Source of the DNA: a virus
Lineage: Duplodnaviria > Heunggongvirae > Uroviricota > Caudoviricetes
DNA length: 64,000 nt
Strand: one strand, 5' to 3'
Virus record (IMG/VR): IMGVR_UViG_3300029740_000238
Shown here: positions 17,621 to 35,920 of the stretch, piece after piece
Numbering within the stretch: the first letter of the stretch is position 1
How the letters are laid out: each line of letters begins with the position of its first letter
Notes under the pieces: model-generated
The model's database searches: none
What the model was told of the DNA's origin: nothing
Seen by the model: the letters and a program-made list of their open reading frames with translations, nothing else
Position numbers and translations under genes: made by a program

Positions 17621-17657
17621 CTTGCGAACGGCATACAATAAGTGTTGTACGACAGAT
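17621..17657 (+). promoter_or_regulatory. Recurrent promoter-like motif (TTGCGAACGGCATACAAT) plus a downstream inverted partner TTGTACGACAGATA
   Basis: A member of the GTGCGAAT..TACAAT family. Confidence 0.45.
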
Positions 17658-17697
17658 AATAAACCGACATCAACCATTCATAATCTGACAAATTCAG

Positions 17698-17731
17698 ACA
17701 GGCACCAATCGGGTGACCTGTCTTTTTTGTT
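17698..17731 (+). terminator. Leader hairpin plus T-run between the promoter-like motif and the 17769 gene
   Basis: GACAGG ... CCTGTC stem followed by TTTTTTG. Confidence 0.45.
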
Positions 17732-17768
17732 GCAAGACCGCGTAATGCGGAGAAAGTCGAGAAAAGCT

Positions 17769-18119: not shown

Positions 18120-18252
18120 GCCACTCTATCCAATTCCAGCATGACATTCGGCTGCACGCCGTATGCTCATATATGAAGCAGTTATCGTAAAAATGATAGC
18201 TGCTATTTTTATTTTACAAGCCTCGAAAATACGAGGAGAAAGAGAGTTTGCT

Positions 18253-19413: not shown

Positions 19414-19542
19414 TAAAAAGCCATCTGATACGAAGTTGGCTTGTGAATGTGAATGTAGCAGCTATCATCTTCCTCCAGTAGGGGGATGGTCGCTGCTTTT
19501 TTATTACAAGCCTCGAATGTTACGAGGAGAAAGAGAAAAATT

Positions 19543-21102
19543 ATGAATGCTTTTATGAATGTTATGCACACCACCACCTGCAACTGCACTGCTTGCACGA
19601 CTGTTCCGACTCTTGGCATTAAGATGCCGTATGAGGAAGAGGAAAAGAAAGCTACTAAAACTAGAAAGACTCGCCAAAAACTGATTGTTGGAGAAAACGA
19701 TTTGGCTACGGTCGCTCCTGAAGTTGCCGCAATGCTGAGTGAGAAAGATAAGCACTTTGCTTTTGAAGTTACTGCTGGAAGCAACAGGAAACTTACTTTT
19801 GTCTGCCCTGACTGCAAGAAAGAGTTTGAGGCTAAAATTTGCAGTGTCACAATAGCAGTTTGCCCATGTCCTTATTGCCGCAAAGTAAAAAAAGCGCGTC
19901 GCAATCCGAAACCTATTGTTGGAGTTAATGATTTGGCTTCGCAATGCCCGCAGGCTGTAGCAATGTGGAGCGAAAAGAATAAATGCTACCCAGCAGAAGT
20001 TTTCGCCCAAAGCACTAAGACTGCAATTTTCAATTGCCCAAAATGTAAGCACGAATTTGAGACGACTGTCACATCCTTTGTGAAAAGCATCAAAAAATCG
20101 AAAGGCAATACTACTGGCTGCCCTATCTGTAATGGGACTAAAGTTGTTGTTGGCTACAATGATTTAGCTACGACCTGCCCCCAAGTAGCTGCTATGTTAA
20201 GCAAAAAAAACGCTGACTTTGCAACAAAGTACACTATGGGAAGCAATGCGGTTGCAAGTTTTACTTGTCCTGATTGCAAAAAAGAGTTTGAGGCTAAAAT
20301 TTGCAAAGTCACAAATGTAGTTTACCCATGTCCTTATTGCCGCGATACGAAAATTCTCGCTAATCATATGGATTTGGAAACTTACTTAAAGAAAAATAAT
20401 CGAGAGGATATTCTTAACTGTATTCGTCCAGATAGTCCGTATCAGGCAAGTGAAGTTTCTTATTCCAGCAACAAAACATTATTTCTTAATTGCCCTGAAT
20501 GTGGTAATAAATGGGTGATTTCAGCTAATTATCTGACTGCACAAGGCATTAGTTATATGTGTGGTAATTGTAATCAAACGACAAATTTTATTTCCAAACC
20601 AGAGCAGTATGCTGTTCGTATTGCAATGGGTTTTGCAAGGGAAAACGGAGTTCCAAATGCATTCGATGAAGTTCGTCACATTTTTGGCTATAACAACAAA
20701 TATGGTGTAGATTTTGTCGATAACACTCGCAAGGTTTGCATGGAGTACAATGGTGTATATTGGCATAAAGACAAAAAAAGAGTTGATTGCTATAAATTCA
20801 TCAAAATCCATAATGCCGGATATACTTTTATTCGTATACTGGAACCGGGCTTAAAAGCTTTTGACAAAAAATATGACATTGTATTGCCAAAAAACAACAA
20901 ACACGGTAACGAGTATGAATCAAAAATCATGGAGGACCTTGGCTATAAGCTTATTTCTTTATTTGAGGAAATCTATAATTACAAGGCCACTCCTGAAATT
21001 CAAAAATTAGTCGATTTTAAAGAATTCGAAAAGTGGTACGATATTCATCGCAAAAGAATTTCTGCAAAAGCTACCGACAACGCAGCAAAGAAAGCTGCCT
21101 GA
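19543..21102 (+). CDS. Zinc-ribbon-repeat protein with a C-terminal DUF559/Vsr-like PD-(D/E)xK-type nuclease domain
   Basis: Four to five repeats of the same zinc-ribbon unit. The C-terminal region (VDFVDNTRKVCMEYNGVYWHKD ... GYTFIRI) resembles Vsr/DUF559 endonucleases. Confidence 0.65.
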   Translation: MNAFMNVMHTTTCNCTACTTVPTLGIKMPYEEEEKKATKTRKTRQKLIVGENDLATVAPEVAAMLSEKDKHFAFEVTAGSNRKLTFVCPDCKKEFEAKICSVTIAVCPCPYCRKVKKARRNPKPIVGVNDLASQCPQAVAMWSEKNKCYPAEVFAQSTKTAIFNCPKCKHEFETTVTSFVKSIKKSKGNTTGCPICNGTKVVVGYNDLATTCPQVAAMLSKKNADFATKYTMGSNAVASFTCPDCKKEFEAKICKVTNVVYPCPYCRDTKILANHMDLETYLKKNNREDILNCIRPDSPYQASEVSYSSNKTLFLNCPECGNKWVISANYLTAQGISYMCGNCNQTTNFISKPEQYAVRIAMGFARENGVPNAFDEVRHIFGYNNKYGVDFVDNTRKVCMEYNGVYWHKDKKRVDCYKFIKIHNAGYTFIRILEPGLKAFDKKYDIVLPKNNKHGNEYESKIMEDLGYKLISLFEEIYNYKATPEIQKLVDFKEFEKWYDIHRKRISAKATDNAAKKAA

Positions 21103-21158
21103 TAGATTACAAGACCTCTGACGAACTCAGTCGTCTTTTTACATAGATAGCGTTTCCT

Positions 21159-21197
21159 GCCGTTCACCCATAACCGGGTGGGCGGCTTTTTCTTTTG
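21159..21197 (+). terminator. Rho-independent terminator (same GGGTGGGCGGCTTTTTCTTTTG family)
   Basis: GCCGTTCACCC ... GGGTGGGCGGC stem plus T-run. Confidence 0.6.
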
Positions 21198-21430
21198 CCA
21201 ACTACTTGCCATACGTCAATTTCATGCATGAATTACAAAATAGTAACCGTTCCATACAACCGCTGGCGATGACTACCAGTTGTAGTGTATTTGATTGGAC
21301 TTCCAAATTCTATTTTACACGCACATATTGCAACTTACGGTTGTATTTGTTATACTAATAACAACCGATAACAACCAACAAAGAGCAAATAACAACTAAC
21401 AGGTGTTGCGGCAAACAAGGGAGGCCAATC

Positions 21431-22699
21431 ATGGCGAGCGAACGAGCGATACTTCACTGTGACATGAACTCTTTTTACGCAAGCTGCGAGGCGGCTTATA
21501 ACCCAAAGCTGCAGGGAAAACCAATTGCGGTATGTGGTGACCCGGAAAGGCGAAATGGCATCGTGTTGACTGCCTCATATCCGGCCAAACGGATGGGCGT
21601 GAAAACCGGGATGGCTTTGTGGGAAGCACAGCAGCATTGCAGAGACATCATCTTTGTTCCGGCTCATTATGACCTTTATACTAGGTACAGTAAATACACC
21701 AGAGAAATCTTCTTGCGTTTCACAGACCAGGTCGAACCGTTTGGCTTAGATGAAGCATGGCTTGATTGTACCGCAAGCCAGTCACTTTTTGGGACAGGGG
21801 AAAAGATAGCCAAGAAAATCTCTGATACCGTGAAGGATGAGCTCGGCATCACCTGTTCTATCGGCGTGAGCTGGAATAAAGTCTTTGCAAAGCTGGGGTC
21901 CGACTATAAGAAACCGGATGCCACCACCATCATATCAAGGTCAAACTGGAAGGATATCGTATTCCCGCTGCCTGCCACGGACCTTTTGTATGTTGGGTCC
22001 AGAACGGGGAAAAAGCTGTCAAACTACTGTATCCATACAATCGGTGACTTGGCGACCACCAATCCAAGCTTTCTGAAAGAGAAACTCGGAAAAATCGGTC
22101 CCATGCTATGGGAATTTGCCAACGGGCTTGATACGGGAACGGTAGCAAAATACGAGGACAGGGAGGCTCAAGCACCCATCAAGAGCGTTGGGAACAGTTG
22201 GACCACGCCAAGAGACCTCCTAACTGATGGGGACGTCTGGATAGTGCTTTATCTTCTTTCGGAGAGTGTTGCGGCCCGCCTCCGGGAGAATCATTTCCGA
22301 TGTCGAGGAGTAGAAGTGAGTCTCCGAGATTCCAGCCTTTTCAGCTTTGAACGGCAAGTCAAGCTGCCTCAGCCAACGATGCAGGAAAAGGATATTGCAG
22401 AGGCAGCGTACCAGCTGTACAAGAAGAATTATCGGTGGAGTGAGCATCTTCGCTCAGTCGGTGTGCGTGCCATTGACCTGCGTCCGGATACCGAACCAAA
22501 CCAGATATCTTTTGAGTATAGTGCCGAAAAGCAAGAGGAGACTGAACGACTCGAATCCGCAATCGATGGGATACGAAACCGATTCGGATACTACTCTGTG
22601 CAAAGGGCTGTTATGTACAAGGACCGCTTTCTCTCGCATTGTGATGCAAAGGGTGACCATACGATTCACCCACATGGGTATTTGCAAGGGAGCGTCTAA
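21431..22699 (+). CDS. Y-family DNA polymerase (DinB/UmuC/ImpB family)
   Basis: The N-terminus DMNSFYASCE ... LDEAWLD is diagnostic. RBS GGGAGG. Confidence 0.9.
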   Translation: MASERAILHCDMNSFYASCEAAYNPKLQGKPIAVCGDPERRNGIVLTASYPAKRMGVKTGMALWEAQQHCRDIIFVPAHYDLYTRYSKYTREIFLRFTDQVEPFGLDEAWLDCTASQSLFGTGEKIAKKISDTVKDELGITCSIGVSWNKVFAKLGSDYKKPDATTIISRSNWKDIVFPLPATDLLYVGSRTGKKLSNYCIHTIGDLATTNPSFLKEKLGKIGPMLWEFANGLDTGTVAKYEDREAQAPIKSVGNSWTTPRDLLTDGDVWIVLYLLSESVAARLRENHFRCRGVEVSLRDSSLFSFERQVKLPQPTMQEKDIAEAAYQLYKKNYRWSEHLRSVGVRAIDLRPDTEPNQISFEYSAEKQEETERLESAIDGIRNRFGYYSVQRAVMYKDRFLSHCDAKGDHTIHPHGYLQGSV

Positions 22700-22702
22700 G
22701 CT

Positions 22703-22975
22703 ATGCCAGAACAAAGAATCAAGAAATATGTAGAAGTCATTGCCGACTTTTCTCCTGAAGGTATCCTGACACCTCAAACAGTCATCTGGGACACAGGCCA
22801 GAAATTCGACATCACCTGTATCTCGGAGGTGCTGCCACGCAAATACTCAAAGACTGGTGGTGTTGGGGTACGCTATACCTGCCAAATAGGAAGAGCCAAA
22901 ACATATCTGTTCTTTGAGGAAGACAAGTGGTTTGTTGAGGCAAAAGAAAACGCTGCAGCAGCAGACTCTTGCTAA
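22703..22975 (+). CDS. Small protein translationally coupled to the Y-family polymerase (possible YolD-like accessory protein)
   Basis: 90 aa, 3 nt after the polymerase stop. The family call rests on position alone. Confidence 0.4.
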   Translation: MPEQRIKKYVEVIADFSPEGILTPQTVIWDTGQKFDITCISEVLPRKYSKTGGVGVRYTCQIGRAKTYLFFEEDKWFVEAKENAAAADSC

Positions 22976-23361
22976 AAGTCGAAGAAATAATTGCCCGTCA
23001 AGACTCCATCGACTTTCATAGTAGCGTTTGGGTCAGGCTTGCAACCGGATTTGCGGCAGAATGACTCCATTTCATGCGTTAACACGGACTGAATGATAAT
23101 GCGGTGTACACCGTATTCTTCGCAAATTTTCTTCAAAGCCGAAAGTATCGCTGTCATCGTACCACAACGCTTATGCGCGAACTCAACACGAGAAAGAACC
23201 AGTGCAAAATGGCCAAGAAAAGCAACACGTAACTCGTTCTTTCCATCGCTTGAGGTAATCCAAACAGTACGCATGCTGGTAGAAACACTGCAATGACAGT
23301 TTTGCTTATTTTCAATAATATCAACAAGTTGTTGTATTTGTTCTTTTGTAAGCTCGAGCAT
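22972..23361 (-). CDS. Hypothetical protein (possibly acyltransferase-fold)
   Basis: 129-aa ORF on the minus strand. Weak fold guess only. Confidence 0.4.
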   Translation of the reverse strand: MLELTKEQIQQLVDIIENKQNCHCSVSTSMRTVWITSSDGKNELRVAFLGHFALVLSRVEFAHKRCGTMTAILSALKKICEEYGVHRIIIQSVLTHEMESFCRKSGCKPDPNATMKVDGVLTGNYFFDF

Positions 23362-23461
23362 ACCGATAGCCCTCCGATATTTTTATCGCTTAAACATTAT
23401 AACACAATATTAAGCAGACGAAACGACTCTAAAACAATTCACAGAAAGAAGGTGAAGCATT

Positions 23462-24016
23462 GTGAATAGCAAGTATCGAGAGCAAACCTGCTGCTTTGTC
23501 GGGCACAAGGATATCCCACCGGGAGAAAAGCTCAAAATATTAGCCAGAGTAGAGCATCGACTGATTCCTCTCATTCAGCAGGGAGTCATATACTTTGGTA
23601 TCGGTGGCTCTTTAGGGTTCGATGCCCTCATGGCAGATATGCTGGTTTCCTTGAAAGCTGCACATCCTCGTATTCGTATCATTGAGGTTTTACCATTTGA
23701 GGGATACCGTTCCAGGTGGAGTTTAGAACAACAGCGGCACGCAGAGAAGATAGACAAACAGGTGGATAAGATTGTCTATGCGGCGAAAGAGCCAAGCAGG
23801 GGAGTATATCTTTTAAGAGACCGGCATTTAGTGGATTGTTCTGCCTATTGCATCTCCTATTGTACTAGAAATACTGGAGGCACAGCATATACGGTAAAAT
23901 ACGCTCTGGAACATGGCGTAACGGTGTATAACGCTTCCAGTTTCGATGTGAGCGCCTTGCTTCAGGCTCAGCCGCTTGGGAAGAACGAACAGGTAGTGTC
24001 TTCGCACAAAATATGA
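23462..24016 (+). CDS. SLOG-superfamily protein (DUF1273/YpsA-like)
   Basis: CCFVGHKDIP near the N-terminus matches the C-x-TGHR signature. GTG start with RBS GAAGGTGAAG. Confidence 0.55.
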   Translation: MNSKYREQTCCFVGHKDIPPGEKLKILARVEHRLIPLIQQGVIYFGIGGSLGFDALMADMLVSLKAAHPRIRIIEVLPFEGYRSRWSLEQQRHAEKIDKQVDKIVYAAKEPSRGVYLLRDRHLVDCSAYCISYCTRNTGGTAYTVKYALEHGVTVYNASSFDVSALLQAQPLGKNEQVVSSHKI

Positions 24017-24296
24017 GGGAGATTTCCTGGCGTTTGGAAAAAGCACCCCTATGACTTTGAGCTTTGCCGCACAAAAAGCGAGCCTCCGCTCTTTGGCGGG
24101 GGCTCTTCTTGTATTCTCAAAAACGTTGAATTTAATTTCACTGAATTCCGATTCAGCATTATTTGGCGTGGCTCAGCTTGGCCCGGTAGCACGATACCAT
24201 GGCGGCCGAACACAACGATTCTCCAGAACGGAATTCTCGACATTCGGTGCGAATCGTATATAATCTAAATAATAAAACAGTATAGGAATATAGCTA

Positions 24297-24338
24297 AGCC
24301 GCCAAGCGAGTGAAATCGTTTGGTGGCTTTTCTTTTTG
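24297..24338 (+). terminator. Rho-independent terminator
   Basis: AGCCGCCAA ... TTGGTGGCT stem plus TTTTCTTTTTG. Confidence 0.55.
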
Positions 24339-24381
24339 CTGCGGAAAAGTAGACATTGTACTTGTCATGAGCTTGTTGCAT

Positions 24382-24445
24382 ACTTGCTACGAACTTGCTA
24401 AAAACTTGCTAAGCACTTGCGACGCTTCACCTCGAAGCAAGTTCA
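24382..24445. repeat. Four direct repeats of ACTTGC(T/G)A at exact 11-bp phasing, plus an inverted GCAAGT copy
   Basis: Copies at 24382, 24393, 24404 and 24415, seen directly. Confidence 0.7.
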
Positions 24446-24903
24446 TTTTTTTGCGCGAAAGAATATCGGATAAGTGACGCTTCCTACTCGTATGACCGAA
24501 AGAAAACATGCAAAGACTCTACCATTCTGGTAGGGCTTTTTTGCTGCCCAAAAAGTTGGAAAAATGTCGCAAGCGAGCCGCTGAAACCTCAGAATTTTGT
24601 CGCAGCCTTTCCGAATATGAGATGTATCTCACAAAAGCGAAATGCGCTGCTTCGTATCTGTGGTGAGACAATCGGAACAGGCGAATAGCAAAATCTCAGC
24701 TGCCGCAAATGCTGTCAAGTTCAAATCACAACTCCCAAAAGTTTCGTTTGGGAAAGCCTGCATTAAAAGTTTCGTTCTGGAAAATGCAGAGGGGAAAGGA
24801 AAATGTCGAAGCATATATGCACTGATTTTCTTCTTGCTATTTGTGCAATCCGCTCAAATTGGCGATAAATATTCCCAAAATAAATAAGTCAAAGTGCTTT
24901 TGG

Positions 24904-24911
24904 TGTATAAT
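24904..24911 (+). promoter_or_regulatory. Extended -10 promoter (TGTATAAT) for the lipoprotein gene
   Basis: TGTATAAT lies 32 nt upstream of the start. A duplicate copy precedes the paralog. Confidence 0.5.
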
Positions 24912-24942
24912 GGCTCTGACAAACAGAAAAAAGGAGAACACT

Positions 24943-26034
24943 ATGAAAAAGGTTGTATCATTAGCACTTTCGACTTTGCTCGTCCTCTCGTTGGCTGCCT
25001 GTGGCAAGGCAGACAGTTCTGCTGCAGCCTCAAGTAAATCCAAGTCAAGTGCTTCGTCGTCAAGTGCTTCGTCAAATAGCACTTCCAATAGCACGCAAGA
25101 TTACAGCCCTGACGGGATTAAAGTAGGAGAGACATATACTACAGAAGACGGCAAAACATATGAAAGGGTGTGGAACGGCACAGGCAGCGATTTACCCACG
25201 CCGTCCCCCGAACCCAAAATTACATACGATAATGATTTCCAGGCACAAACACTTGTTGATAATGAAGAATGCACCATTATCTTGCAGAGCGTAGGCTACG
25301 ATGATGATTACGGCTATTATTGGAAGCTTTACTTCAAGAATAAGACATCAGATAAAAAACTCGGTTACTCGTTTGGCGACTGCACATTGAATGGCGTGGG
25401 TGCGAGCCTTTGGCTTACGAGTGTTGAACCTGGTCAAGAGGAAACGGAGATTCATCATTGGGAAAGTTCCGGGCTTAAAATTTATAACATCAATCCGCAG
25501 GATATCAATACGGTAAGTTTTTATCTCAATGTTTATAACGAATTAGATGATGCTGTCCCACGACATGACCTTGTTGATGACGATTTCGTGGTTTATCCAA
25601 AAGGGGAAGAAAACGCAACCGAGCCAAAGCATGAAACTCAACCCACAGACCTCGTACTGGCCGACAATGACGCTTGCACTCTGATGATTTGTGGATTTGA
25701 CCCCGATGGCCTGGACGGTTACACGGCTAAAGCTTACATCGAAAACAAAACAGATAAAGAAATCATGCTTGCCTTTAGAAGTGGAGGTTCCATAAATGGC
25801 TTTGAGTGCTTCCCTGAAACAGATACAATGGGAATTGATGCGCACACTAATGCCTATGTAGACATCTACTATCGCGATTATTTGGATACTTATGAGGCCA
25901 ACGGTAAAGACCCCACCTCTATCACCGAAATGGTGATGCCAATCGTTATAAACAATTTCAATACTCGGGACATCTATGTAGATGAGACTTTCACTATCAA
26001 CCCTCAGACAAATTCCGTGACAACATCGGAATAA
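24943..26034 (+). CDS. Lipoprotein with an internally duplicated domain (paralog A)
   Basis: MKKVVSLALSTLLVLSLAACG lipobox. Two copies of a DNxxCTxxLQxVGYDDxYGYYW ... NKTD domain. Confidence 0.7.
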   Translation: MKKVVSLALSTLLVLSLAACGKADSSAAASSKSKSSASSSSASSNSTSNSTQDYSPDGIKVGETYTTEDGKTYERVWNGTGSDLPTPSPEPKITYDNDFQAQTLVDNEECTIILQSVGYDDDYGYYWKLYFKNKTSDKKLGYSFGDCTLNGVGASLWLTSVEPGQEETEIHHWESSGLKIYNINPQDINTVSFYLNVYNELDDAVPRHDLVDDDFVVYPKGEENATEPKHETQPTDLVLADNDACTLMICGFDPDGLDGYTAKAYIENKTDKEIMLAFRSGGSINGFECFPETDTMGIDAHTNAYVDIYYRDYLDTYEANGKDPTSITEMVMPIVINNFNTRDIYVDETFTINPQTNSVTTSE

Positions 26035-26150
26035 TTTGACGCCCTCCTGCGATTAAAATTGTTGGCTTTCCCAGACTTCATTTGCAATTTTGCAAATAAA
26101 GTTTCATTCTGGAAAACACGGTGGAAAAGTAAAATGCCGAAGCGCTTTTG

Positions 26151-26158
26151 ATGTATAA
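26151..26158 (+). promoter_or_regulatory. Extended -10 promoter (TGTATAAT), duplicate
   Basis: Same element as at 24904. Confidence 0.5.
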
Positions 26159-26189
26159 TAGCCTTATACAAAGAAAAAAGGAGAAAATC

Positions 26190-27212
26190 ATGAAAAAGGT
26201 TGTATCATTAGCACTTTCGGCTTTGCTTGCCCTTTCCCTGGCCGCCTGTAGCAGCTCTAACACTACCAGTACTGCTGCCAGCAGTGCAGCTACATCTGAT
26301 GCTGCATCCTCCGAGGAAAGCACCAGCGACTCTTCAACGAGTACTGCAAGTAGTGCTGCCGATAATGCAACGGCTGAACCCGACATCCAGTTCGATGAGA
26401 GCTTCCAGCCACAGACGATTGCCGACAACGATACCTGTACCATCATCTTGCAGAACGTGGGTTATGATGACAGCTATGGCTACTACTGGACCGTTGATTT
26501 CCAAAATAAAACGGATGACAAAACTCTTTGCGCTATCACAAGCAGCTCGTCCTTGAATGGAATCCCGGCAGATACCAGTTGGTTCCCGGAAATTGGACCA
26601 GGAGTGAAAACCACCGAGGTCGTTTCGTGGGATAAAGCAGGACTGGAAATCTATGGAGTGAAACCGCAAGACATCGATACCGTCAAACTTCACATCGATG
26701 TCTATGATGAAGCAGAATGGGATGTGTCGAATCGTGATGACCCTGTCGATGATGACTTTGTGATTTATCCGAAAGGTGAAGAGAACGCGACAGAACCAAA
26801 ACACGAGATTCAGCCCACGGATATTGTGCTGTTCGACAATAATGCCTGCAGCATGGTCATTTGCGGATTCTATTCCGACAGCTTCATGGGCTATACGGCG
26901 AAAGCCTACTATCAGAACAAGACGGATGACCGTATCGATATCATTTTGGACAAAGGCTCTATCAACGGCTTTGAATGTACCCCGGAAGGAGCGGCACTAC
27001 TGGAACCACATTCCAACGCCTATGTTGACATTCGTTGGCAAGAATATGCTGAAACTTATGCAGAGAATGGCAACGACCCAACATCCATCACAGAAATTGT
27101 AATGCCAGTTTTTGTGAGAAAAGACACAGGGAACAATACGGTATACATTGATGCCACTTATTCTATTGACCCGCAGGCAAGAACTGCAACGCCGATAGTG
27201 AACCCCCAATGA
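26190..27212 (+). CDS. Lipoprotein paralog B (same duplicated-domain architecture)
   Basis: MKKVVSLALSALLALSLAACS lipobox. Shares long identical stretches with paralog A (DDDFV.YPKGEENATEPKHE.QPTD). Confidence 0.7.
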   Translation: MKKVVSLALSALLALSLAACSSSNTTSTAASSAATSDAASSEESTSDSSTSTASSAADNATAEPDIQFDESFQPQTIADNDTCTIILQNVGYDDSYGYYWTVDFQNKTDDKTLCAITSSSSLNGIPADTSWFPEIGPGVKTTEVVSWDKAGLEIYGVKPQDIDTVKLHIDVYDEAEWDVSNRDDPVDDDFVIYPKGEENATEPKHEIQPTDIVLFDNNACSMVICGFYSDSFMGYTAKAYYQNKTDDRIDIILDKGSINGFECTPEGAALLEPHSNAYVDIRWQEYAETYAENGNDPTSITEIVMPVFVRKDTGNNTVYIDATYSIDPQARTATPIVNPQ

Positions 27213-27307
27213 TAGTCGCATGATTTTCCGAAACCAAAAAACTTCTGGAATAGCAGCAAAACTTTTCTGGAATGGGAAAACTCTCCGGCTTTTTGGAATG
27301 AAAAAAT

Positions 27308-27344
27308 AAAAGCGCTCACCATTTTTCGGTGGGCGCTTTTCTTC
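27308..27344. terminator. Bidirectional terminator
   Basis: AAAGCGCTCACC ... GGTGGGCGCTTT stem with T/A runs on both sides. Confidence 0.6.
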
Positions 27345-27372
27345 ATAAATCAGGGCAAGGAGACCCGCGACT

Positions 27373-28917
27373 TTAGTCGTGGGTTATTGACTCTTCAGTT
27401 TTCTTTTTCAGCCATTGTCTTCTCACAAACGGCGTGACATAAGTTTCATCACTCTTCAGCTCATAGCCATAGCTTTCAGCTATCAGGATGGCACGTTCGC
27501 TTGCTTTCTGTCCGGCAGGCAGGTGGCGAATGAAACCATTGATGTTTTTGGACGAAGCATCATATTTGGACTTGTCGAACACCCGCAGCGGCTCGTCGTC
27601 ACCATTGCCTTTCTTGCGATAATCGCGGGGCTTTCCGCCAATCATCAGACAACGAATCCCAAATGGAGCATCCGCGTGTGTCACAAACGAAGACCGGAAC
27701 GACGCATCAGTGGGCAGGACATCCGGCAAATCACAGGCGAGAGAAGTGTACAGCCAGAGAATCAGATTCGTGACGCTGTCAACCAGCTCTGGAAATTGAG
27801 CTCGGTCAGTCAAAATATAAAACCACTCGGTGCTTGTGTTATAGTATCCGGCCAGGTCACCGAACTTGGTTACGATTTTATACAGACACACAATCTCGTT
27901 GTCGCGGCAAGTCTCTTTCAGCTTAATTTCCTGTATCAGCTGGCAGACATCAAACTGAAACAATGCACCGTTGGCGGGAAGAGTTCTGCGGCGATGGTGC
28001 AGCGTATCTTTCAGAAACTCTGTCGTATATTTGGGTGAGATGGGCTTTGGCCACCAGGACCACATGTTCGGAGTATTCTCAATCAGCGGCTTGTCCGGCA
28101 GCATGTCCACGGTATACTCGTTCACATAGGTGGCCATCGAAAGAACCGTGTTTGTATACAAATGCGAGAGCAAAGCGAGGTCGTTGATGCTATCGAAATC
28201 TGCTACATTCTCATAGCCATAACGCTTATAGTACGAAAAGACCATATCCAGGCGTCTATCTTCAGAAATCTGAAAATCGCATTTATCGTATGGCCGATTA
28301 TTGAAAAGGGCTTCACTATAATAGACTGGAACATCCGCAAGGGGATAGGGGTCCCGAATGATGATAGGCTCATTCTCAGTCGAAATGCCAACAATGTTGT
28401 TCACAATGTCAAATTCCTGAGGCTTGAGGTATTCGCTCCCCTGTATCAGCATATCGATTACCGCGTACAGGACAGAATCATTACGTTCCATAACTCCGTC
28501 AATGGACAATCCTGAATGAACACATTCCTGCGCATAGGCAATAGCCTTGAAATACAGAGCATAGTCCTTATTCTTCTTGATGGGCTTTGTGAGCTCCTGC
28601 AAGAACCGATGATATCCCTTGATGAATTTATCAGAGTTCGCCATGGCGAGCTCTATCTGAGAGTTAACGGCCTCAATAAGAGGTTTGCACTCCTCAGCTC
28701 CACGGGCCAGGTGAAAGAGGAAAGTAGATGCTTTCCCAAAATCCATGTCATGCAATGTCGTCGCAACCTGGCAAGCGCTGGACAGGGTTCTTCTCTGAAA
28801 TACCCAGATAAACTCGCCTTTGCTCCGATACTTCTTATCCCATACCGGTGCGTATTTATCGACTAAGGCATTACCGAAATCTTCCTGCACTGCCAAAACA
28901 CCATTTTCGTTCTGCAC
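27373..28917 (-). CDS. Hypothetical 514-aa protein, second gene of a two-gene operon
   Basis: Starts 10 nt after the upstream gene stop. No domain recognised. Confidence 0.55.
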   Translation of the reverse strand: MQNENGVLAVQEDFGNALVDKYAPVWDKKYRSKGEFIWVFQRRTLSSACQVATTLHDMDFGKASTFLFHLARGAEECKPLIEAVNSQIELAMANSDKFIKGYHRFLQELTKPIKKNKDYALYFKAIAYAQECVHSGLSIDGVMERNDSVLYAVIDMLIQGSEYLKPQEFDIVNNIVGISTENEPIIIRDPYPLADVPVYYSEALFNNRPYDKCDFQISEDRRLDMVFSYYKRYGYENVADFDSINDLALLSHLYTNTVLSMATYVNEYTVDMLPDKPLIENTPNMWSWWPKPISPKYTTEFLKDTLHHRRRTLPANGALFQFDVCQLIQEIKLKETCRDNEIVCLYKIVTKFGDLAGYYNTSTEWFYILTDRAQFPELVDSVTNLILWLYTSLACDLPDVLPTDASFRSSFVTHADAPFGIRCLMIGGKPRDYRKKGNGDDEPLRVFDKSKYDASSKNINGFIRHLPAGQKASERAILIAESYGYELKSDETYVTPFVRRQWLKKKTEESITHD

Positions 28918-28927
28918 GGTATCCTCC

Positions 28928-30325
28928 TTACAACTTTAACTGCCCCACACAACTCTGCGCGGTGGGCAGTAGCTTGTGGGCCATCTCGTTTCGAAAATAC
29001 TTGGGGTCCACGGCCCGCATCCCGAACCGCACACGGTCCAGGGCATCTGCGTCCTTGAGAATCGTATATAGCAGCCACACCCGTTCTTTGTTTCGAATAT
29101 TGGATGTTTTGAGGTCTGCAAGAGCCTTGCGGTCATCCAAGCAATGATACTCGATGAGGAAAGCAGTTGCCGAATTGCATTCGGGAACAGCATCATAATA
29201 AATGTCATTGGACTTTGCTCCGTGACTGTCATCGACATCATCATTCGTCCGCCCAATATCATGATAAAGAATCGCATCACATAGCTGGTGGGATTCTTTT
29301 CTTGTTAAGGCAATGCCCTGAACCTGAACCAAAAGCAGCGCATCAAAGAGAACTCGCAGCGTATGCTCGGCGTCGTGCTCCTCATCATTAGCCCGGCCAT
29401 AAGCATCATACAGAGTGGAAATGCGGCTCCGGTAGCGCTGGTAGAGAGGGTAGAGCGCCTGGATTTCGTCTGTCAGAGCGTTGATACCGAGAAGCACATC
29501 GACCTTTACATCTTTTACGGCAGCCGGTAGGACAAGGACCTCTTTTTCCTCATCGTCCGGAAAATACTCGATGATGTCACATTTGCTGACATGGGCAGTG
29601 ATGATTCTGCTGTTCTCGAGACTCGGGATGCGGCAGGCGAAGAAACAGGCTGCCTTGTAGCTTGTGGTCCAGGAGAAAGATTTCTCGTATGGAGTTGACT
29701 TACTCCCTTCCCCGCGATAGATGGTCACAACATCCGGCAGGCTGGACAGCTTCTTTTCAGTATCTTCCTTTTGCTTTTGAGATTTTCCAGCAAAGACCTT
29801 TTGCAGGCCATTCTCACTGAGGGAAGAAAAGCCAAAATCACTGGTGCGATACAGGTCAAGAAAGAGAACATATAAGTCCTCACCAGGATTGGACAACTCA
29901 ATGTATTTAGAAAGAACCGATACGCGAAGGCTGTCTTCCAGGGAAAAGAGGTAGCTGCGAATAAAGGGGGCGTTTCCCGATGAGATTTTCTCGGCCATAT
30001 CCAGAACTCTCTGCTGAAACTTTTCGTCCGATTCGCCGTTCACAGCCAGACGCTTGTCCCCGTAAATGTTCAGAGAGAGAACAATGGGAACGGTCGTGCT
30101 ATCGAGCTCGCAATAATAGAGAGGAGCAAGCATATTGTGCGCAGCATAAATCTTGTCGATGGGGAGTCTCGGATACTTTTTAGCGAATTCAGTGGCTGTT
30201 ATACCGATGCTGTAGCCTTCTTTGTAGTACCGTTCAATATCCGCGCTCGTCTGCACTGCAGTGAGGGGTAGCATCGTCTCGAGACTTGCTTGGTTGATGC
30301 TTACAAGAATATCCCCGACCGTCAT
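28928..30325 (-). CDS. Multidomain protein: central ADP-ribosyltransferase-like motifs plus a C-terminal HD phosphohydrolase domain
   Basis: HD motifs at EHTLRV and LYHDIGR. Candidate R-S-E triad at YRG (aa 203-205), TTS (220-222) and EKEVLVLP (260-267). RBS GGAGGAGAAA. Confidence 0.55.
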   Translation of the reverse strand: MTVGDILVSINQASLETMLPLTAVQTSADIERYYKEGYSIGITATEFAKKYPRLPIDKIYAAHNMLAPLYYCELDSTTVPIVLSLNIYGDKRLAVNGESDEKFQQRVLDMAEKISSGNAPFIRSYLFSLEDSLRVSVLSKYIELSNPGEDLYVLFLDLYRTSDFGFSSLSENGLQKVFAGKSQKQKEDTEKKLSSLPDVVTIYRGEGSKSTPYEKSFSWTTSYKAACFFACRIPSLENSRIITAHVSKCDIIEYFPDDEEKEVLVLPAAVKDVKVDVLLGINALTDEIQALYPLYQRYRSRISTLYDAYGRANDEEHDAEHTLRVLFDALLLVQVQGIALTRKESHQLCDAILYHDIGRTNDDVDDSHGAKSNDIYYDAVPECNSATAFLIEYHCLDDRKALADLKTSNIRNKERVWLLYTILKDADALDRVRFGMRAVDPKYFRNEMAHKLLPTAQSCVGQLKL

Positions 30326-30792
30326 TGTTTTTCTCCTCCCACAATTCTTCTAACATAATTATATCATATTTTACAGATGGACGGGCCAAAATCGCAACTT
30401 TGTTCATGAATACTTAACCTTTATGCACGAGATTTATTGTTGCCTTAATATATAAAACTAGAGCCCCGTCATCTTGGATGGGGCTCTTGAGTTGTAGCTG
30501 GAGGTGTATCTCATTTTGTGCCAGGGGTATTGTATGGTAGTTTTCGAAAATGAGTGCAAAAAAACAAACACCAGAAGTCAAACTCAAAAATATCTTAGTC
30601 TTGGCAAGTTTACCCTTGCGCTGCTGTGCGAACTTCGTACAATAAGAATTGTACAAGAGAAACGGCAAGAGACATTTGTAGTGATTGTAGTTGGTCGCCA
30701 CGAATCGATGCCGCATCTGCTTGCGCATAATTACCTCTTTTCGAAGCCCACAGGTCATTCTCTCACCTGTGGGTTTTGTTTATTGCGGAATC

Positions 30793-30810
30793 GTGCGAAT
30801 TGCGGACAAT
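30793..30810 (+). promoter_or_regulatory. Recurrent promoter-like motif GTGCGAATTGCGGACAAT
   Basis: Family consensus GTGCGAATTGC-N-TACAAT. A partial second copy AGTGCGATTGTGAG follows. Confidence 0.45.
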
Positions 30811-30829
30811 TAAAGACAGTGCGATTGTG

Positions 30830-31190
30830 AGATGGGGCGATACCGATGCAGTAGGGATGAGAATCTTAGCAGCTAAAAGAGTCAACAACCCCGCCTAAAC
30901 CGGTTCGGCGGTTATAGACGGGGCTTGCGGGGCAACCTGTAAGCCCAGTTGATTAGCCTAAGCCCATTGCTCCGGCAGTGGGGAAAACTACGTTGTGTAC
31001 TAATAATATAGGCACCTTATCCATGCTCCACAAGTGGTGAGCTCTGCAGGCGTTTCGTTAAACATCTCCGAGGGGAGGAGAAGTGCGAGCGTTATGTCGA
31101 AAGGCTAAAACAGTGCATAACATTGGCGAAGTGGACCACAGGACGCAAGTCCTGACTTATAGTTTTATTACTATTTTACGAATGGAGAAA
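30830..31190 (+). other. About 360 nt of GC-rich, hairpin-dense non-coding sequence upstream of the flotillin gene; candidate structured leader or ncRNA
   Basis: Multiple stems (CCGCC..GGCGG, GGGCTT..AAGCCC, CCCATTG..CAGTGGG, AGGAC-GCAA-GTCCT plus a U-rich tail) and no ORF. Confidence 0.35.
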
Positions 31191-31198
31191 CAAAAATT

Positions 31199-33046: not shown

Positions 33047-33439
33047 ATGCTCGGCGTGAGTTTGATTATCATAGCAGCGGCTATAGTCTACATGGTCGAA
33101 ACCTATATCAGCACCTATTACACTATCGAATACATGCACGGAACATCGCTGTTCCTTATCCTCCTTGCGAAATATGGCACGCCAGTCCTGTTCCTGCTGC
33201 TCTGCGCCTACATTGCATATCGCAAATTCCTCAAAAAGCAGAAAGCTGCGGCTTCTGCTGCATCTGAACGGCCTACAAGCAAAGAAGAGCTGTATACCAA
33301 CAAAATTCAAACGGCATTGACACCTCCCACGATTGAAATCGTGGGATTCCTGGGCGGCGCGGCAAGGTTCATCGCCAAACCGTGTCTGAAACAGCGAGTT
33401 ATGTGGTTTCCCATCATGCACTACGGGTGTAGCGCATGA
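33047..33439 (+). CDS. Small membrane protein (possible flotillin-associated NfeD-like partner)
   Basis: 130 aa with two to three TM helices. RBS GAAGAGGTGAAG. The family call rests on position alone. Confidence 0.45.
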   Translation: MLGVSLIIIAAAIVYMVETYISTYYTIEYMHGTSLFLILLAKYGTPVLFLLLCAYIAYRKFLKKQKAAASAASERPTSKEELYTNKIQTALTPPTIEIVGFLGGAARFIAKPCLKQRVMWFPIMHYGCSA

Positions 33440-33449
33440 CGAGCATCCA

Positions 33450-33577
33450 GCCAAAATGGTTGACCAACATACTTGTCTGTATTCCCAGTTCTTTTAAGTG
33501 CATCCTCCGAAGGGAGTTTCACCTCTTGCGAGGCAGCTCTTTAATGAGGGAGTGTCGAACCCCCAGAAAGTTATTGT
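33450..33577 (-). ncRNA. Candidate TnpB guide (omega/right-end RNA) region at the IS right end
   Basis: By analogy, TnpB guide RNAs derive from the 3' end of tnpB plus the IS right end. A hairpin-rich segment lies directly downstream of the tnpB stop. Confidence 0.3.
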
Positions 33578-35314
33578 TTAGAATCCAATGCTTGCAGGAA
33601 GAGAACTTCCAACCGCCTGCAAGCGATGCTTTGTATTTTCGTGCATTTCTAAAAATGCAGGAAAAGCTGAATTAAGGGTTTCCATATTGTACTGCAAGGA
33701 TTCGATATCTATATGTTCAAGCAGGAAGGCAGAATATAAGTCACGCTGGACTACTTCTCCGCTGTGGAGACGAGCCATTCGCTCGGATAGTTTCTTTTTG
33801 GTATAACTTTCATCTGTATGGTCAAATTGCGAGGCTTTTGTTTCAAAGGTGCTGACTTTGATAACGCTGCCGCCATAACGATTGGCTTTTTTGTTCAGGA
33901 TGGAAATAAACATTGCGGGGGCGCAGCGGCTTAGAGACTTTCCGAACCGTTTTTTCGTATGTGCTCTGCCAGTTTTAGCGTTGATTTTTGTTTCTTTGCT
34001 GCGCTTCTGCAAGGCTTTGTAGTTCATATCTTCAACCACAAACTCGTTACCATATGCCAACAATTCGTTGGCGAGAATGTTGTGCTCCATTTTGCGAATG
34101 TCAGCTAACTTACGGTACAGGTTACGAAGCTTTGCACGCAAACGATAATACCTTTTGCTGTATTTCCACTTGCGCTTTTGTTTTTGTCCATGCTGTCGCT
34201 TCAACCTTTTGATTGTACCATCCGAATTATAGTATTTCGGATTCGTAGCGCGGCGCGAACGGTCCATTGCACGAAGCGTACAAGCGATTTCGTTCACGAG
34301 GCTTTTTGCCTGCGCTCTTGCAGACGGAGCGAGTACGCGAAGGTCGCAAACATCCTTACCGCTAAAGGCAATGGTTTGTGTACCGATATCAAGACCTATG
34401 CGCCCTTGATTGACAGGATGCTTCATCACACCGTTACTGTCGCATTTGGTGGGAGGATAGCCTTCTAAGATGAATTGTGCATAATACTTCCACTTGGTCT
34501 TAACCCACTTACGAGTAATGCGGCAGTATTTCACTCCACATTTGAGAGCTTCTTGCTGATATTTTCCTGTCTGAGTTTTAGGATTACGCAACACAACAGG
34601 AAATTCATGCTTTCCGTACACAATGCGCAGGTTGCCTTCTCCGATAGTGGGCTTAATTTTTGCGATAGCGGCAGCAATTTCAGCTTCCATTTGTGGTTTT
34701 ACCTCATCAGGAAGAACGACTTTCTTATCGTCTTTAGGGTCAGGCCGCCCGTACATATCATCGTATCGCTTCTCGACGGCTTTTTGCGCCTTGCGCTTAG
34801 CCGACTCAATATTGCTTGTAGTGAGGTTTGCCGGGCGAAGCACGATACCGGTGAAGTTGTTTTTTCCGGAGATAGCTGCTAAATCATCTAACCTTTTGTA
34901 GTGAACCTCTTTTCCTTTGCTAAAGAAGAAAGTGCTCCATGCTTTCCAAACATCAGAGGCAACTGCCTGTGCTATATGGGAGTTTATGGCATAGTGCTTC
35001 GCGTACGGCACAACCAACTTATGAAAAGCATCTTCAGAAAAACGATATTCTTTAAGCATCTTTTCGCGTTGCTTAAAGAGTGTTTTTTGCTCATCGCTGT
35101 CGGGAGTTGCTTTTGCAATAGCTGCCATCAACTCACGATACTTGCGCGTCTTGCGCAATTGATGCCACATTTTTGTAGTCGCACTCACAAGCTGATTGTA
35201 GATGACACCACACTTCTTGAACTCCTTATACAGATAGTCTTGCTCGTTGAGACTTATATCAAGAGGCAATGTCAATACAAATGATGGCGTGCTATTCTTG
35301 CTCCCGAAAGCCAT
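33578..35314 (-). CDS. tnpB: TnpB (IS605 OrfB family, RuvC-like RNA-guided nuclease homolog)
   Basis: GLDIG (RuvC-I), VVEDMNYKALQKR (RuvC-II) and C-terminal QRDLYSAFLL (RuvC-III-like) motifs. 578 aa. Confidence 0.75.
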   Translation of the reverse strand: MAFGSKNSTPSFVLTLPLDISLNEQDYLYKEFKKCGVIYNQLVSATTKMWHQLRKTRKYRELMAAIAKATPDSDEQKTLFKQREKMLKEYRFSEDAFHKLVVPYAKHYAINSHIAQAVASDVWKAWSTFFFSKGKEVHYKRLDDLAAISGKNNFTGIVLRPANLTTSNIESAKRKAQKAVEKRYDDMYGRPDPKDDKKVVLPDEVKPQMEAEIAAAIAKIKPTIGEGNLRIVYGKHEFPVVLRNPKTQTGKYQQEALKCGVKYCRITRKWVKTKWKYYAQFILEGYPPTKCDSNGVMKHPVNQGRIGLDIGTQTIAFSGKDVCDLRVLAPSARAQAKSLVNEIACTLRAMDRSRRATNPKYYNSDGTIKRLKRQHGQKQKRKWKYSKRYYRLRAKLRNLYRKLADIRKMEHNILANELLAYGNEFVVEDMNYKALQKRSKETKINAKTGRAHTKKRFGKSLSRCAPAMFISILNKKANRYGGSVIKVSTFETKASQFDHTDESYTKKKLSERMARLHSGEVVQRDLYSAFLLEHIDIESLQYNMETLNSAFPAFLEMHENTKHRLQAVGSSLPASIGF

Positions 35315-35318
35315 AAAG

Positions 35319-35720
35319 TTACCCTCCTCTCTTTTTTTGCTGTTCTACATAGTGTTGAATCGTAGCGGTAGACACATCTCCGGCAGTGCTTACAAAATAG
35401 TTGCGTGTCCACATTTGCATTTCGATGTCGGGAAAAAATTCTTTCTTTAATTGCCTGCCGGTGGTTCCTTTAATAATTTTCATGATTTCTGCAGCACTTA
35501 ATGTAGGCGGAGCATTCACGAAAAGATGACAATGGTCGATATGACATTCCATTGCCAGTATCACAATGTCGTTTTGCTCACAAATTTGAGTTACAAGTTC
35601 CTTGAAACGAGCTTCAAACCCATCCACCAGAAATAATTTTCTCCGATAGCGTGGGCAAAACACAAAGTGATAATTTATCATAGAAACGGTTGTTTTTGTG
35701 CGTCTGTAGTTTCTTTTCAT
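35319..35720 (-). CDS. tnpA: IS200/IS605 TnpA (Y1 HUH transposase)
   Basis: HIDHCHLFV (HuH) motif and a catalytic Tyr in RNYFVSTAG. Confidence 0.85.
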   Translation of the reverse strand: MKRNYRRTKTTVSMINYHFVFCPRYRRKLFLVDGFEARFKELVTQICEQNDIVILAMECHIDHCHLFVNAPPTLSAAEIMKIIKGTTGRQLKKEFFPDIEMQMWTRNYFVSTAGDVSTATIQHYVEQQKKRGG

Positions 35721-35920
35721 GTATCTATTTTATCACAATTCAGACAATTTTATGTTACAGATATATGAACTTTATATCACAACATCGTCACATTACAATT
35801 ATATTGGCAAATACGAAGAAAACCATTATTGTCGGCCTATCATCCCACGGTTGAAACCGTGGGCTTTCCCGGCCTTCATTTTGTAAAGACAAAAAGCGTC
35901 TTCTCAGAGCAGGCTGACCA

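What the first reader, a model, noticed from the sequence alone, without database searches (positions are those of the whole stretch)
30830..31190. About 360-nt hairpin-dense non-coding region between a promoter-like motif and the flotillin gene
The region has no ORF and much higher GC than other intergenic DNA. It contains at least five strong local stems and ends in AGGAC-GCAA-GTCCT plus a U-rich tail just before the flotillin RBS. It could be a riboswitch-like or attenuator leader or an independent ncRNA. It does not resemble tmRNA, RNase P or SRP RNA on inspection.
Basis: seen in the sequence. Interest (0 to 1): 0.5.

Follow-up and report, generated by a model that had tools for sequence, protein, structure and literature searches.

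The report
Orphan IscB guide RNA before flotillin
The hairpin-rich stretch is not a riboswitch: it is the guide-RNA scaffold (HEARO/omega RNA) left by an IscB transposon that landed just upstream of a flotillin gene and later lost its nuclease gene, which is a known kind of element in an ordinary if neatly documented situation.

Summary
Window 30881..31141 (+) is a full-length match to Rfam RF02033, the HEARO RNA, which is the omega (guide) RNA of the transposon nuclease IscB: 89.7 bits, cut-off 83, E 7e-17.

The same RNA, 84-91% identical, sits directly upstream of intact iscB genes in more than 20 gut viral or plasmid contigs. Here the downstream gene is flotillin, and the 64-kb window holds no iscB.

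Related copies of this mobile element give filled and empty sites. In the cleanest allele (L239) the RNA is a 301-nt insertion (30881..31181) placed immediately 5' of ATGGA. That motif is the target used by this transposon family, and it lies in the flotillin ribosome-binding region. About 60% of related elements lack the insertion, as do chromosomal flotillin orthologues. It is therefore not a flotillin riboswitch or attenuator.

The scaffold is structurally intact and much less polymorphic than its flanks. It lies downstream of a sigma-70-like promoter, in the orientation omega RNAs need. One related 222-kb contig carries both this solo RNA and an intact IscB.

Best reading: a stranded solo omega RNA, co-transcribed as the flotillin leader and possibly usable by IscB supplied in trans. 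It is a new member of a known kind, of modest interest.

The parts
30783..30810 (+). Sigma-70-like promoter of the host element: -35 TTGCGG at 30783-30788, a 16-nt conserved spacer containing GTGCGAATTGC, and -10 GACAAT at 30805-30810. It is the probable source of the transcript that runs through the omega RNA into flotillin. It belongs to the flank, not to the insertion.
   Evidence: The motif GTGCGAATTGNNGANAATTAAA occurs 7 times on the + strand, each upstream of an ORF, against 0.03 expected by chance. The aligned copies show TTGCnn, then the spacer, then (T/G)A(C/T)AAT. The motif is present in both filled and empty alleles. Promoter function is inferred.
30865..30880 (+). The 16 nt of flanking DNA immediately 5' of the scaffold (CTTAGCAGCTAAAAGA). 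This is the position of the guide segment in IscB omega RNAs.
   Evidence: Homology to all IscB-linked relatives begins exactly at 30881, and the upstream sequence differs in every locus. The guide position follows the literature (bioRxiv 10.1101/2023.03.14.532601). The window holds no other match with 3 or fewer mismatches.
30881..31141 (+). HEARO / IscB omega-RNA scaffold, full length. It includes the transposon-end hairpin CCCCGCCTAAACCGG..CCGGTTATAGACGGGG at its 5' end.
   Evidence: RF02033 scores 89.7 bits (gathering score 83), E 7.4e-17, model positions 1-211 of 211. It is 84-91% identical to RNAs directly upstream of IscB genes. Ten base pairs show compensatory changes, against 0-3 in the slid controls.
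31139..31154 (+). 3' terminal hairpin CAGGAC-GCAA-GTCCTG of the transposon RNA region.
   Evidence: It is conserved in all 21 aligned relatives. GGAC/GTCC here replaces GGGC/GCCC in the others, a compensatory A-U for G-C change (helix 13). The scan lists it as terminator-like, but its tail is not a U-run.
31155..31181 (+). Remnant of the former iscB 5' UTR (ACTTATAGTTTTATTACTATTTTACGA). This is the last stretch of the insertion.
   Evidence: It aligns to the stretch between the hairpin and the iscB Shine-Dalgarno sequence in IscB-linked loci. Empty-site alleles resume at ATGGAG, which is 31182 here.
30881..31181 (+). The whole insertion relative to empty alleles (301 nt): the solo omega-RNA remnant of an ISC (IscB-type IS200/IS605) element.
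   Evidence: Empty allele E2 reads ...CTAAAAAACTGAAT|ATGGAGAAAC. Allele F3 (L239) reads ...CTGAAT|GTCAAC...TTTTACGA|ATGGAGAAAC. The window carries allele F1...CTAAAAGA|GTCAAC....
31182..31198 (+). Native flotillin 5' UTR. It holds the target motif ATGGA and the Shine-Dalgarno GGAG (31184-31187).
   Evidence: The sequence is identical in empty allele E2 and in L141. Two other polymorphic ISC insertions, at |ATGAA and |AAGGA, support this target rule, as does PMC4810608.
31199..32842 (+). Flotillin (SPFH/Band 7) gene, 547 aa. It is a pre-existing gene of the host element, not transposon cargo.
   Evidence: Pfam Band_7 and Flot. The NCBIfam FloT model gives a partial score. The gene is present with the same promoter in empty alleles.

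Best explanation
The region is a solo ('stranded') omega RNA. It is the RNA-coding end of an IscB-encoding IS200/IS605-family transposon (ISC element), whose RNA family is catalogued as HEARO (RF02033).

Origin. An ISC element inserted, co-oriented with flotillin, immediately 5' of an ATGGA motif in the flotillin Shine-Dalgarno region of a gut conjugative or phage-like element. The iscB ORF and the other transposon end were then lost. What remains is 301 nt (30881..31181): the scaffold, its terminal hairpin and part of the old iscB 5' UTR.

Expression (inferred). The remnant lies 70 nt downstream of the -10 hexamer of a sigma-70-like promoter and upstream of an intact SD and ATG. It is therefore most likely transcribed as the 5' leader of the flotillin mRNA. 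That is the arrangement IscB omega RNAs need, because their guide is encoded outside the element.

Function (inferred). The scaffold is still intact. If it acts at all, it acts as a guide RNA for IscB protein made by other ISC copies in the same cell, with the 16 nt at 30865..30880 as the guide. It is not a device that senses or regulates flotillin.

Status of the steps. Shown: family identity, insertion boundaries, absence of iscB from the window, and intactness of the structure. Inferred: transcription from the flotillin promoter, the way iscB was lost, and any activity in trans.

The confidence given (0.85) is for identity and origin. Activity in trans I rate at about 0.4.
For: Identity
- Full-length RF02033 hit above the gathering score.
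- 84-91% identity over 30881..31187 to RNAs that directly precede 456-468 aa ORFs.
- Those ORFs are IscB: NF040563, 272.7 bits against a cut-off of 175; Pfam RRXRR and HNH.
- Homology to all relatives starts exactly at GTCAAC (30881), with unrelated flanks upstream. This is the behaviour of a transposon end and guide junction.

Insertion
- Nine viral and about 38 metagenomic copies of the same locus lack the RNA. Four viral and about 25 metagenomic copies have it.
- L239 shows a clean 301-nt insertion at CTGAAT|ATGGAG.
- The same target rule holds for two other polymorphic ISC insertions and in PMC4810608.

Loss of iscB
- tblastn of five IscB proteins against the window finds nothing better than E 0.32.
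- There are no HNH or RRXRR domains in the large ORFs scanned.
- There is no right-end hairpin in the window.

Intactness
- The 89.7 bits fall within the 82.9-97.9 range of the eight IscB-linked relatives of this subfamily that were scored.
- 93% of cells are paired and 10 pairs carry compensatory changes.
- Nucleotide diversity among 17 filled copies is 0.004. It is 0.050 at flotillin third codon positions and 0.019-0.041 upstream.

Context
- A promoter family lies upstream.
- Omega RNAs depend on transcription that starts outside the element.
- Standalone omega RNAs can work with IscB in trans (PMC9581776).
- A related 222-kb contig holds both the solo RNA and an intact 465-aa IscB.
Against: - No expression data exist. 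The promoter is only a consensus-like motif, and the tool's own promoter scan did not call it.
- There is no iscB in this 64-kb window. The remaining roughly 80 kb of the source contig could not be read.
- In the common allele, which the window carries, the left junction lies 6 nt upstream of the canonical site. The guide's matching protospacer in empty alleles is therefore followed by CTGAA or TTGAA rather than ATGGA, and it carries one mismatch to the commonest empty alleles. This weakens a homing role.
- The window copy has two private substitutions. One (30908) opens the loop-closing pair of the end hairpin.
- Low diversity is also expected for a young insertion without any selection.
- How iscB was lost is unresolved. 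The right junction looks like a clean transposase-type boundary, and a deletion between the two Shine-Dalgarno sequences would need one extra base change.
Confidence: 0.85

Rival explanations
1. Inert relic. The RNA is a dead fragment of a transposon that is carried along in the flotillin 5' UTR. It has no activity of its own and no partner protein.
For: - The window holds no iscB, and the element lacks one transposon end.
- It is found at a single genomic site only. No other solo copy with this right end exists in IMG/VR.
- In the major allele the guide is out of register with the target motif.
- Low diversity can be explained by a recent single origin.
Against: - The covariance-model score is as good as that of IscB-linked copies.
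- The differences from relatives keep the pairing. The terminal hairpin changed G-C to A-U, and helix 7 re-pairs as a continuous 10-bp stem.
- 11 of 20 metagenomic copies are identical, on flanks that differ by 2-8%.
- IscB copies are abundant in this family of elements: 143 loci in IMG/VR, and at least one lies on a contig that also has the solo RNA.
Confidence: 0.4
2. Guide-only selfish element. The solo omega RNA uses IscB from co-resident ISC copies to cut empty alleles of the same locus in related elements, and it is copied in by repair (homing).
For: - The identical 301-nt insert sits on at least three flank haplotypes that are shared with empty alleles. The insert-specific linked SNPs found are 30879, 31191 and 31207, and flanking variants at 30856 and at 31215 onward are already shuffled among haplotypes.
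- The guide of allele F2 matches the commonest empty alleles 16 of 16, followed by CTGAA, which is 4 of 5 positions of the ATGAA target motif.
- Cut-and-copy homing is the known role of these nucleases, and standalone omega RNAs work in trans.
Against: - These elements are mosaic everywhere, so shuffled flanks are not specific evidence.
- Empty alleles with a perfectly matching protospacer survive: 4 in the metagenome set.
- The TAM of these IscBs is unknown.
- The guide of the major allele has a mismatch 2 nt from the TAM-proximal end against most empty alleles.
Confidence: 0.15
3. Cis-regulatory leader (riboswitch, attenuator or mRNA-stabilising 5' UTR) that controls flotillin.
For: - It lies between a promoter and the flotillin SD on the same strand.
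- It contains a hairpin listed as terminator-like.
- As a 301-nt structured insert in the leader, it probably has some effect on mRNA stability or translation.
Against: - It is absent from about 60% of otherwise near-identical loci and from all flotillin orthologues examined.
- It belongs to a family with a known, different function.
- The hairpin and tail are shared with iscB leaders.
- No ligand-sensing family matched.
Confidence: 0.05
4. On origin only: the 301 nt arrived as a ready-made miniature (PATE-like) element mobilised by a TnpA transposase, rather than as a full ISC that later lost iscB.
For: - In L239 both junctions are exactly those of a canonical insertion, CTGAAT|...ACGA|ATGGAG.
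- The T of GAATGGAG is explained by the target, whereas a deletion between the two SD sequences predicts an A.
- The 3' hairpin plus TATAG (GGACGCAAGTCC..TATAG) resembles the inner hairpin of the true ISC right end (GTCGCAAGCGAC TATAG), at a similar distance from the boundary.
- An internally deleted mini-ISC does exist (L026).
Against: - The outer stem of the right-end hairpin is missing.
- No second insertion of such a mini-element exists anywhere in IMG/VR.
- L026 keeps the genuine right end, unlike this element.
Confidence: 0.2

Closest known systems
HEARO RNA (Rfam RF02033), the omega RNA of IscB / ISC transposons of the IS200/IS605 superfamily
   Same: - Full-length covariance-model match above threshold.
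- The same helices, with compensatory changes.
- The first scaffold base coincides with the transposon boundary.
- The 5'-GTCA terminus and the N|ATGRA target are as described for ISC elements (PMC4810608).
- Close relatives lie directly 5' of iscB.
   Different: Here no iscB follows. The RNA is fused to the native Shine-Dalgarno sequence of a flotillin gene, and the other transposon end is missing.
Standalone omega RNAs reported to function with IscB in trans (Altae-Tran et al. 2021, as cited in PMC9581776)
   Same: A complete omega-RNA scaffold without an adjacent nuclease gene, in a lineage rich in IscB copies.
   Different: Activity in trans was not tested here. This copy is embedded in the 5' UTR of a host-element gene, and its origin can be traced through filled and empty alleles.
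PATEs: protein-less IS200/IS605 derivatives (bioRxiv 10.1101/2023.03.14.532601; PMC4810608)
   Same: A short, non-coding derivative of an IS200/IS605-family element.
   Different: PATEs keep both subterminal hairpins and multiply. This element keeps only one end and occupies one site. L026 in a related contig is a better PATE candidate.
Riboswitch or attenuator leaders
   Same: A long structured 5' leader between a promoter and the SD, ending in a hairpin.
   Different: It is not conserved with the downstream gene, it is present or absent among near-identical loci, and it belongs to a transposon RNA family.

Membership tests
HEARO / IscB omega RNA (RF02033) | Scores at or above the curated gathering score against the family covariance model, over the whole model | tested here: met
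   89.7 bits against 83, E 7.4e-17, model positions 1-211 of 211, not truncated. The eight IscB-linked relatives of this subfamily that were scored give 82.9-97.9 bits.
HEARO / IscB omega RNA (RF02033) | The secondary structure is supported by covariation | tested here: met
   On 21 subfamily sequences, 93.3% of cells are paired. Ten pairs and 35 cells carry changes on both sides, against 0-3 pairs and 0-7 cells when the partners are slid. My pseudoknot helix 5 was mis-registered by one column in that call. Read directly, G77-C249, C78-G248, C79-G247 and A81-U245 pair and never vary.
HEARO / IscB omega RNA (RF02033) | Lies immediately 5' of an iscB (HNH + RuvC) ORF on the same strand | tested here: not met
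   The downstream ORF is flotillin, and the window holds no IscB. The feature is met in more than 20 relatives that are 84-91% identical. This feature describes the usual locus, not the RNA itself; standalone copies are reported in the literature.
HEARO / IscB omega RNA (RF02033) | The scaffold begins at the transposon boundary and the guide is variable flanking DNA | tested here: met
   All loci share sequence from GTCAAC onward and differ upstream of it. Empty sites confirm the boundary.
HEARO / IscB omega RNA (RF02033) | Binds IscB and directs DNA cleavage | not testable with these tools
   This needs biochemistry or a plasmid-interference assay.
ISC element (IscB-type IS200/IS605 transposon), complete | Both subterminal hairpin ends plus iscB | tested here: not met
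   Only the omega-RNA end is present. The right-end hairpin pattern is absent from the window, and there is no iscB.
PATE / miniature IS200/IS605 derivative | Two transposase-recognised ends and several copies at different sites | tested here: not met
   One end is missing. Only the flotillin-site copies were found in IMG/VR.
Riboswitch / transcription attenuator of flotillin | Conserved together with the regulated gene, and matches a known aptamer or leader family | tested here: not met
   There is no such Rfam match. The element is absent upstream of flotillin in 4 orthologous genome loci, and in 9 viral and about 38 metagenomic near-identical loci.

The most novel reading that the evidence does not exclude
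The solo omega RNA is a protein-less, guide-only selfish element. It is transcribed from the flotillin promoter, borrows IscB from other ISC copies in the cell, cuts alleles of related mobile elements that lack it, and is copied in by repair. This would explain why an identical 301-nt insert sits on several diverged flank haplotypes.
Probability: 0.12. Interest if true: 0.55.

Novelty: new member of a known kind. Interest (0 to 1): 0.27.

Why it matters
It resolves an apparent 'mystery leader' into a catalogued RNA family, and it shows that flotillin is not under riboswitch control here.

The locus is also a clean natural record of how an IscB transposon decays into a stand-alone guide RNA. 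It offers empty sites, a pristine insertion allele, two derived junction alleles, and rearrangements that break exactly at the RNA's first base. That makes it a convenient test case for two open questions: whether solo omega RNAs are used in trans in nature, and how guide-only loci arise, which is a step discussed in the origin of CRISPR-Cas9.

The practical value is modest. It offers one more IscB/omega-RNA subfamily, abundant in human-gut mobile elements.

Tried and rejected
- Megablast of 24 kb around the site against the phage and plasmid record collections found no match.
- Pfam and PHROGs scans of the neighbouring ORFs found no IscB.
- I looked for a conserved RNA-flotillin pairing in genomes. 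Flotillin orthologues in contigs assigned to Gemmiger, Subdoligranulum, Parolsenella and Oribacterium share only the coding region and have no HEARO. The idea of a conserved flotillin leader was rejected.
- I first thought the RNA-flotillin unit might itself be mobile, because L038 has a different left flank. L135 showed this is an inversion of window 17110..30880 that breaks at the RNA boundary. The idea was rejected.
- I considered that surviving empty alleles all escape the guide. Four metagenomic empty alleles match it perfectly, so this was rejected.
- A search for a right-end hairpin in the window found none.
- A search for other targets of the 16-nt guide in the window found none.
- One search used a mistyped pattern that was one N too long and found nothing; it was repeated correctly.
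- In one search my pseudoknot columns were off by one, so helix 5 there is meaningless.
- Literature: one search was rejected for syntax. Altae-Tran 2021 and Weinberg 2009 are not held, so they are cited only through papers that cite them.
- I could not read the other roughly 80 kb of the source contig to look for iscB.

Full report
**1. Observation**

Window 30830..31190 has no credible ORF. Its GC content is higher than that of neighbouring intergenic DNA: 0.488 for the region and 0.521 for its core, against 0.38-0.41 for the neighbours. It folds more stably than dinucleotide shuffles (z = -3.1).

The hairpin CAGGAC-GCAA-GTCCTG is at 31139..31154. GGAG follows at 31184..31187, and the flotillin ATG is at 31199. 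The description is accurate, except that the U-rich tail does not abut the stem.

**2. What it is**

A scan of the window against Rfam gives one hit above threshold: RF02033, HEARO RNA, at 30881..31141 on the + strand. It scores 89.7 bits (gathering score 83), E 7e-17, over the full model. HEARO is the omega (guide) RNA of IscB, the transposon-encoded relative of Cas9.

A 24-mer from the RNA recovers 29 loci in IMG/VR. In most of them the same RNA, 84-91% identical over 30881..31187, is followed 8 nt after a GGAG by a 456-468 aa ORF. That ORF is IscB:
- NCBIfam NF040563 scores 272.7 bits against a cut-off of 175.
- Pfam finds RRXRR and HNH.

Homology to every relative starts exactly at GTCAAC (30881), and the DNA upstream differs from locus to locus. 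This is the expected behaviour of a transposon end whose guide is flanking DNA.

Within this subfamily, 10 base pairs carry compensatory changes, against 0-3 in the slid controls.

**3. What is unusual here**

The ORF downstream is flotillin (Band_7 and Flot), not iscB. The window holds no IscB:
- The large ORFs that were scanned have no such domains.
- tblastn with five IscB proteins gives nothing better than E 0.32.
- There is no right-end hairpin of the ISC type.

**4. Filled and empty sites**

The window is part of a gut mobile element of roughly 140-220 kb. It encodes a T4SS coupling protein, a VirB4/TraG-like ATPase, Mor, AcrVA2-like and restriction-modification genes.

Searching with the flotillin protein and with a pattern spanning the site gave many copies of the same locus. 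Nine viral and about 38 metagenomic copies have the promoter motif and flotillin but no RNA. Four viral and about 25 metagenomic copies have the RNA.

The alleles are:
- E1: ...CTAAAAAACTGAATGTGGAG
- E2: ...CTAAAAAACTGAATATGGAGAAAC
- F3 (L239): ...CTGAAT|GTCAAC...TTTTACGA|ATGGAGAAAC
- F2 (L238): ...CTAAAAAA|GTCAAC...
- F1 (the window and most other copies): ...CTAAAAGA|GTCAAC...

F3 is E2 plus a clean 301-nt insertion, which corresponds to window 30881..31181. F3 and F2 also keep one base (30938 C) that the IscB-linked consensus has, so they look older than F1.

Two other polymorphic ISC insertions in the same elements sit at AACA|ATGAA (inside flotillin) and GCAG|AAGGA (at window-equivalent 39287). 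ISC elements are described as having a 5'-GTCA terminus and as inserting at N|ATGA (PMC4810608). The RNA therefore marks an ISC insertion at its normal kind of target, which here overlaps the flotillin SD.

Flotillin orthologues with 78-86% amino-acid identity, in contigs assigned to Gemmiger, Subdoligranulum, Parolsenella and Oribacterium, share only the coding region and have no HEARO.

**5. How iscB was lost**

Two routes fit the data.

(a) A full ISC inserted, and iscB plus the right end were then deleted between the two similar SD regions: ACGAAAGGAG of iscB and ATGGAG of flotillin.

(b) A one-off transposition of a truncated unit that used the 3' hairpin plus TATAG as a surrogate end. 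That stretch partly resembles the inner hairpin of the true right end.

Route (a) needs one extra A-to-T change. Route (b) lacks the outer stem of the right-end hairpin, and no second copy of such a unit was found in IMG/VR. I favour (a), but only weakly.

**6. Present state and likely working**

The scaffold's model score lies within the range of the IscB-linked copies of this subfamily (82.9-97.9 bits). The differences from those relatives preserve pairing:
- The terminal hairpin changed G-C to A-U.
- Helix 7 re-pairs as a continuous 10-bp stem.

Among 17 filled copies, nucleotide diversity in the 301 nt is 0.004. It is 0.050 at flotillin third codon positions, 0.0018 at first and second positions, and 0.019-0.041 upstream. 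The insert sits on several flank haplotypes that are shared with empty alleles. This fits either constraint or a recent single origin with recombining flanks, and the data cannot separate the two.

Upstream lies a sigma-70-like promoter: -35 TTGCGG at 30783-30788 and -10 GACAAT at 30805-30810. It is one of seven similar promoters in the window. IscB omega RNAs depend on transcription that enters from outside the element, in the same direction as iscB, and that is the geometry here.

I therefore infer that the RNA is made as the leader of the flotillin mRNA, with 30865..30880 in the guide position.

Standalone omega RNAs are reported to work with IscB in trans. IscB copies are common in this family of elements: 143 loci in IMG/VR. 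One 222-kb contig carries both the solo RNA and an intact 465-aa IscB.

Against an active homing role:
- In F1 the guide is out of register with the ATGGA motif.
- The guide has one mismatch to the commonest empty alleles.
- Empty alleles that match the guide perfectly survive.

**7. Comparison with what is known**

As an RNA this is a member of HEARO / omega RNA, and all RNA-level features that were tested are met. The usual locus feature, an adjacent iscB, is not met. That places it with the standalone omega RNAs already reported.

It is not a complete ISC, not a PATE (it has one end and occupies one site), and not a riboswitch or attenuator.

**8. Verdict**

The interpretation as an independent ncRNA is roughly right; the interpretation as a flotillin riboswitch or attenuator is not supported. 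This is a new member of a known kind. Its interest is modest and lies mainly in being a well-documented natural example of an IscB transposon decaying to a guide-only locus.

Noticed in passing
window 1646..1725 and 2942..3016 (+), flanking ORF 1718..2902: Two sub-threshold HDV-like ribozyme matches bracket a GC-rich (0.57) 394-aa ORF that has no Pfam hit. RF02682 HDV-F-prausnitzii scores 32.7 and 38.3 bits (gathering score 44); RF00094 scores 38.7 bits. Both show the GCCUC..CGCGGCG core. The antisense strand also carries a long ORF here.
   Followed up: partly
window 33317..35882 (- strand): An IS605-type element with TnpA (35319..35720; NF033573) and a 578-aa TnpB-like protein (33578..35314) is a polymorphic insertion. 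L129, L130, L123 and other loci join 33316 directly to 35883. On its own strand it sits 3' of TTAC and ends in TCAA, as IS608 does. It interrupts the 3' end of the small membrane-protein ORF 33047..33439.
   Followed up: yes
window 30793, 32975, 38976, 40186, 43321, 55235, 55862 (+): A family of seven near-identical promoter-like sites, all upstream of + strand ORFs: TTGCnn, then a conserved spacer GTGCGAATTGC, then (T/G)A(C/T)AAT. The conserved spacer suggests a common regulator or operator of this mobile element.
   Followed up: partly
L135 (= contig of L038) 1..5989; L266: Rearrangements break exactly at the first base of the omega RNA. L135 has window 17110..30880 inverted, which truncates a lipoprotein ORF. 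L266 joins the flotillin upstream region to a different ISC copy, one with an internally deleted iscB and a foreign right flank. ISC copies evidently act as recombination substrates.
   Followed up: partly
L026 1882..about 2250: A miniature ISC derivative: the first 171 nt of the omega RNA are fused to the last roughly 150 nt of an ISC, including the genuine type B right-end hairpin and ...ATAATT|ATGAA. It is a PATE-like candidate.
   Followed up: partly
L141 6781/6782, L142 1485/1486; L123, L125, L142 at window-equivalent 39287: Independent ISC insertions in related elements. One lies inside flotillin after about codon 262, at AACA|ATGAA; two different HEARO subfamilies occupy this same site in L141 and L142. 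Another lies at GCAG|AAGGA.
   Followed up: yes
L042 5673..5915, L025 981..1220, L142 1486..1725: A second, more divergent HEARO subfamily (75.7-84.6 bits) occurs in the same viral contigs, so several ISC lineages coexist in them.
   Followed up: no
window 30326..30333: L124, L130, L125, L131 and L141 carry an extra segment of about 1.3 kb here relative to the window. Loci also differ by 2-3.4 kb at window 36117. The neighbourhood is highly mosaic.
   Followed up: no
window 24877..25006 and 26125..26253; 18163..19413 and 19486..21102: A 130-nt repeat (82% identity) occurs at the 5' ends of two adjacent ORFs of unknown function. There are also two tandem paralogues with multiple DUF4379 treble-clef zinc fingers; the second lies in a low-GC (0.365) patch.
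   Followed up: no
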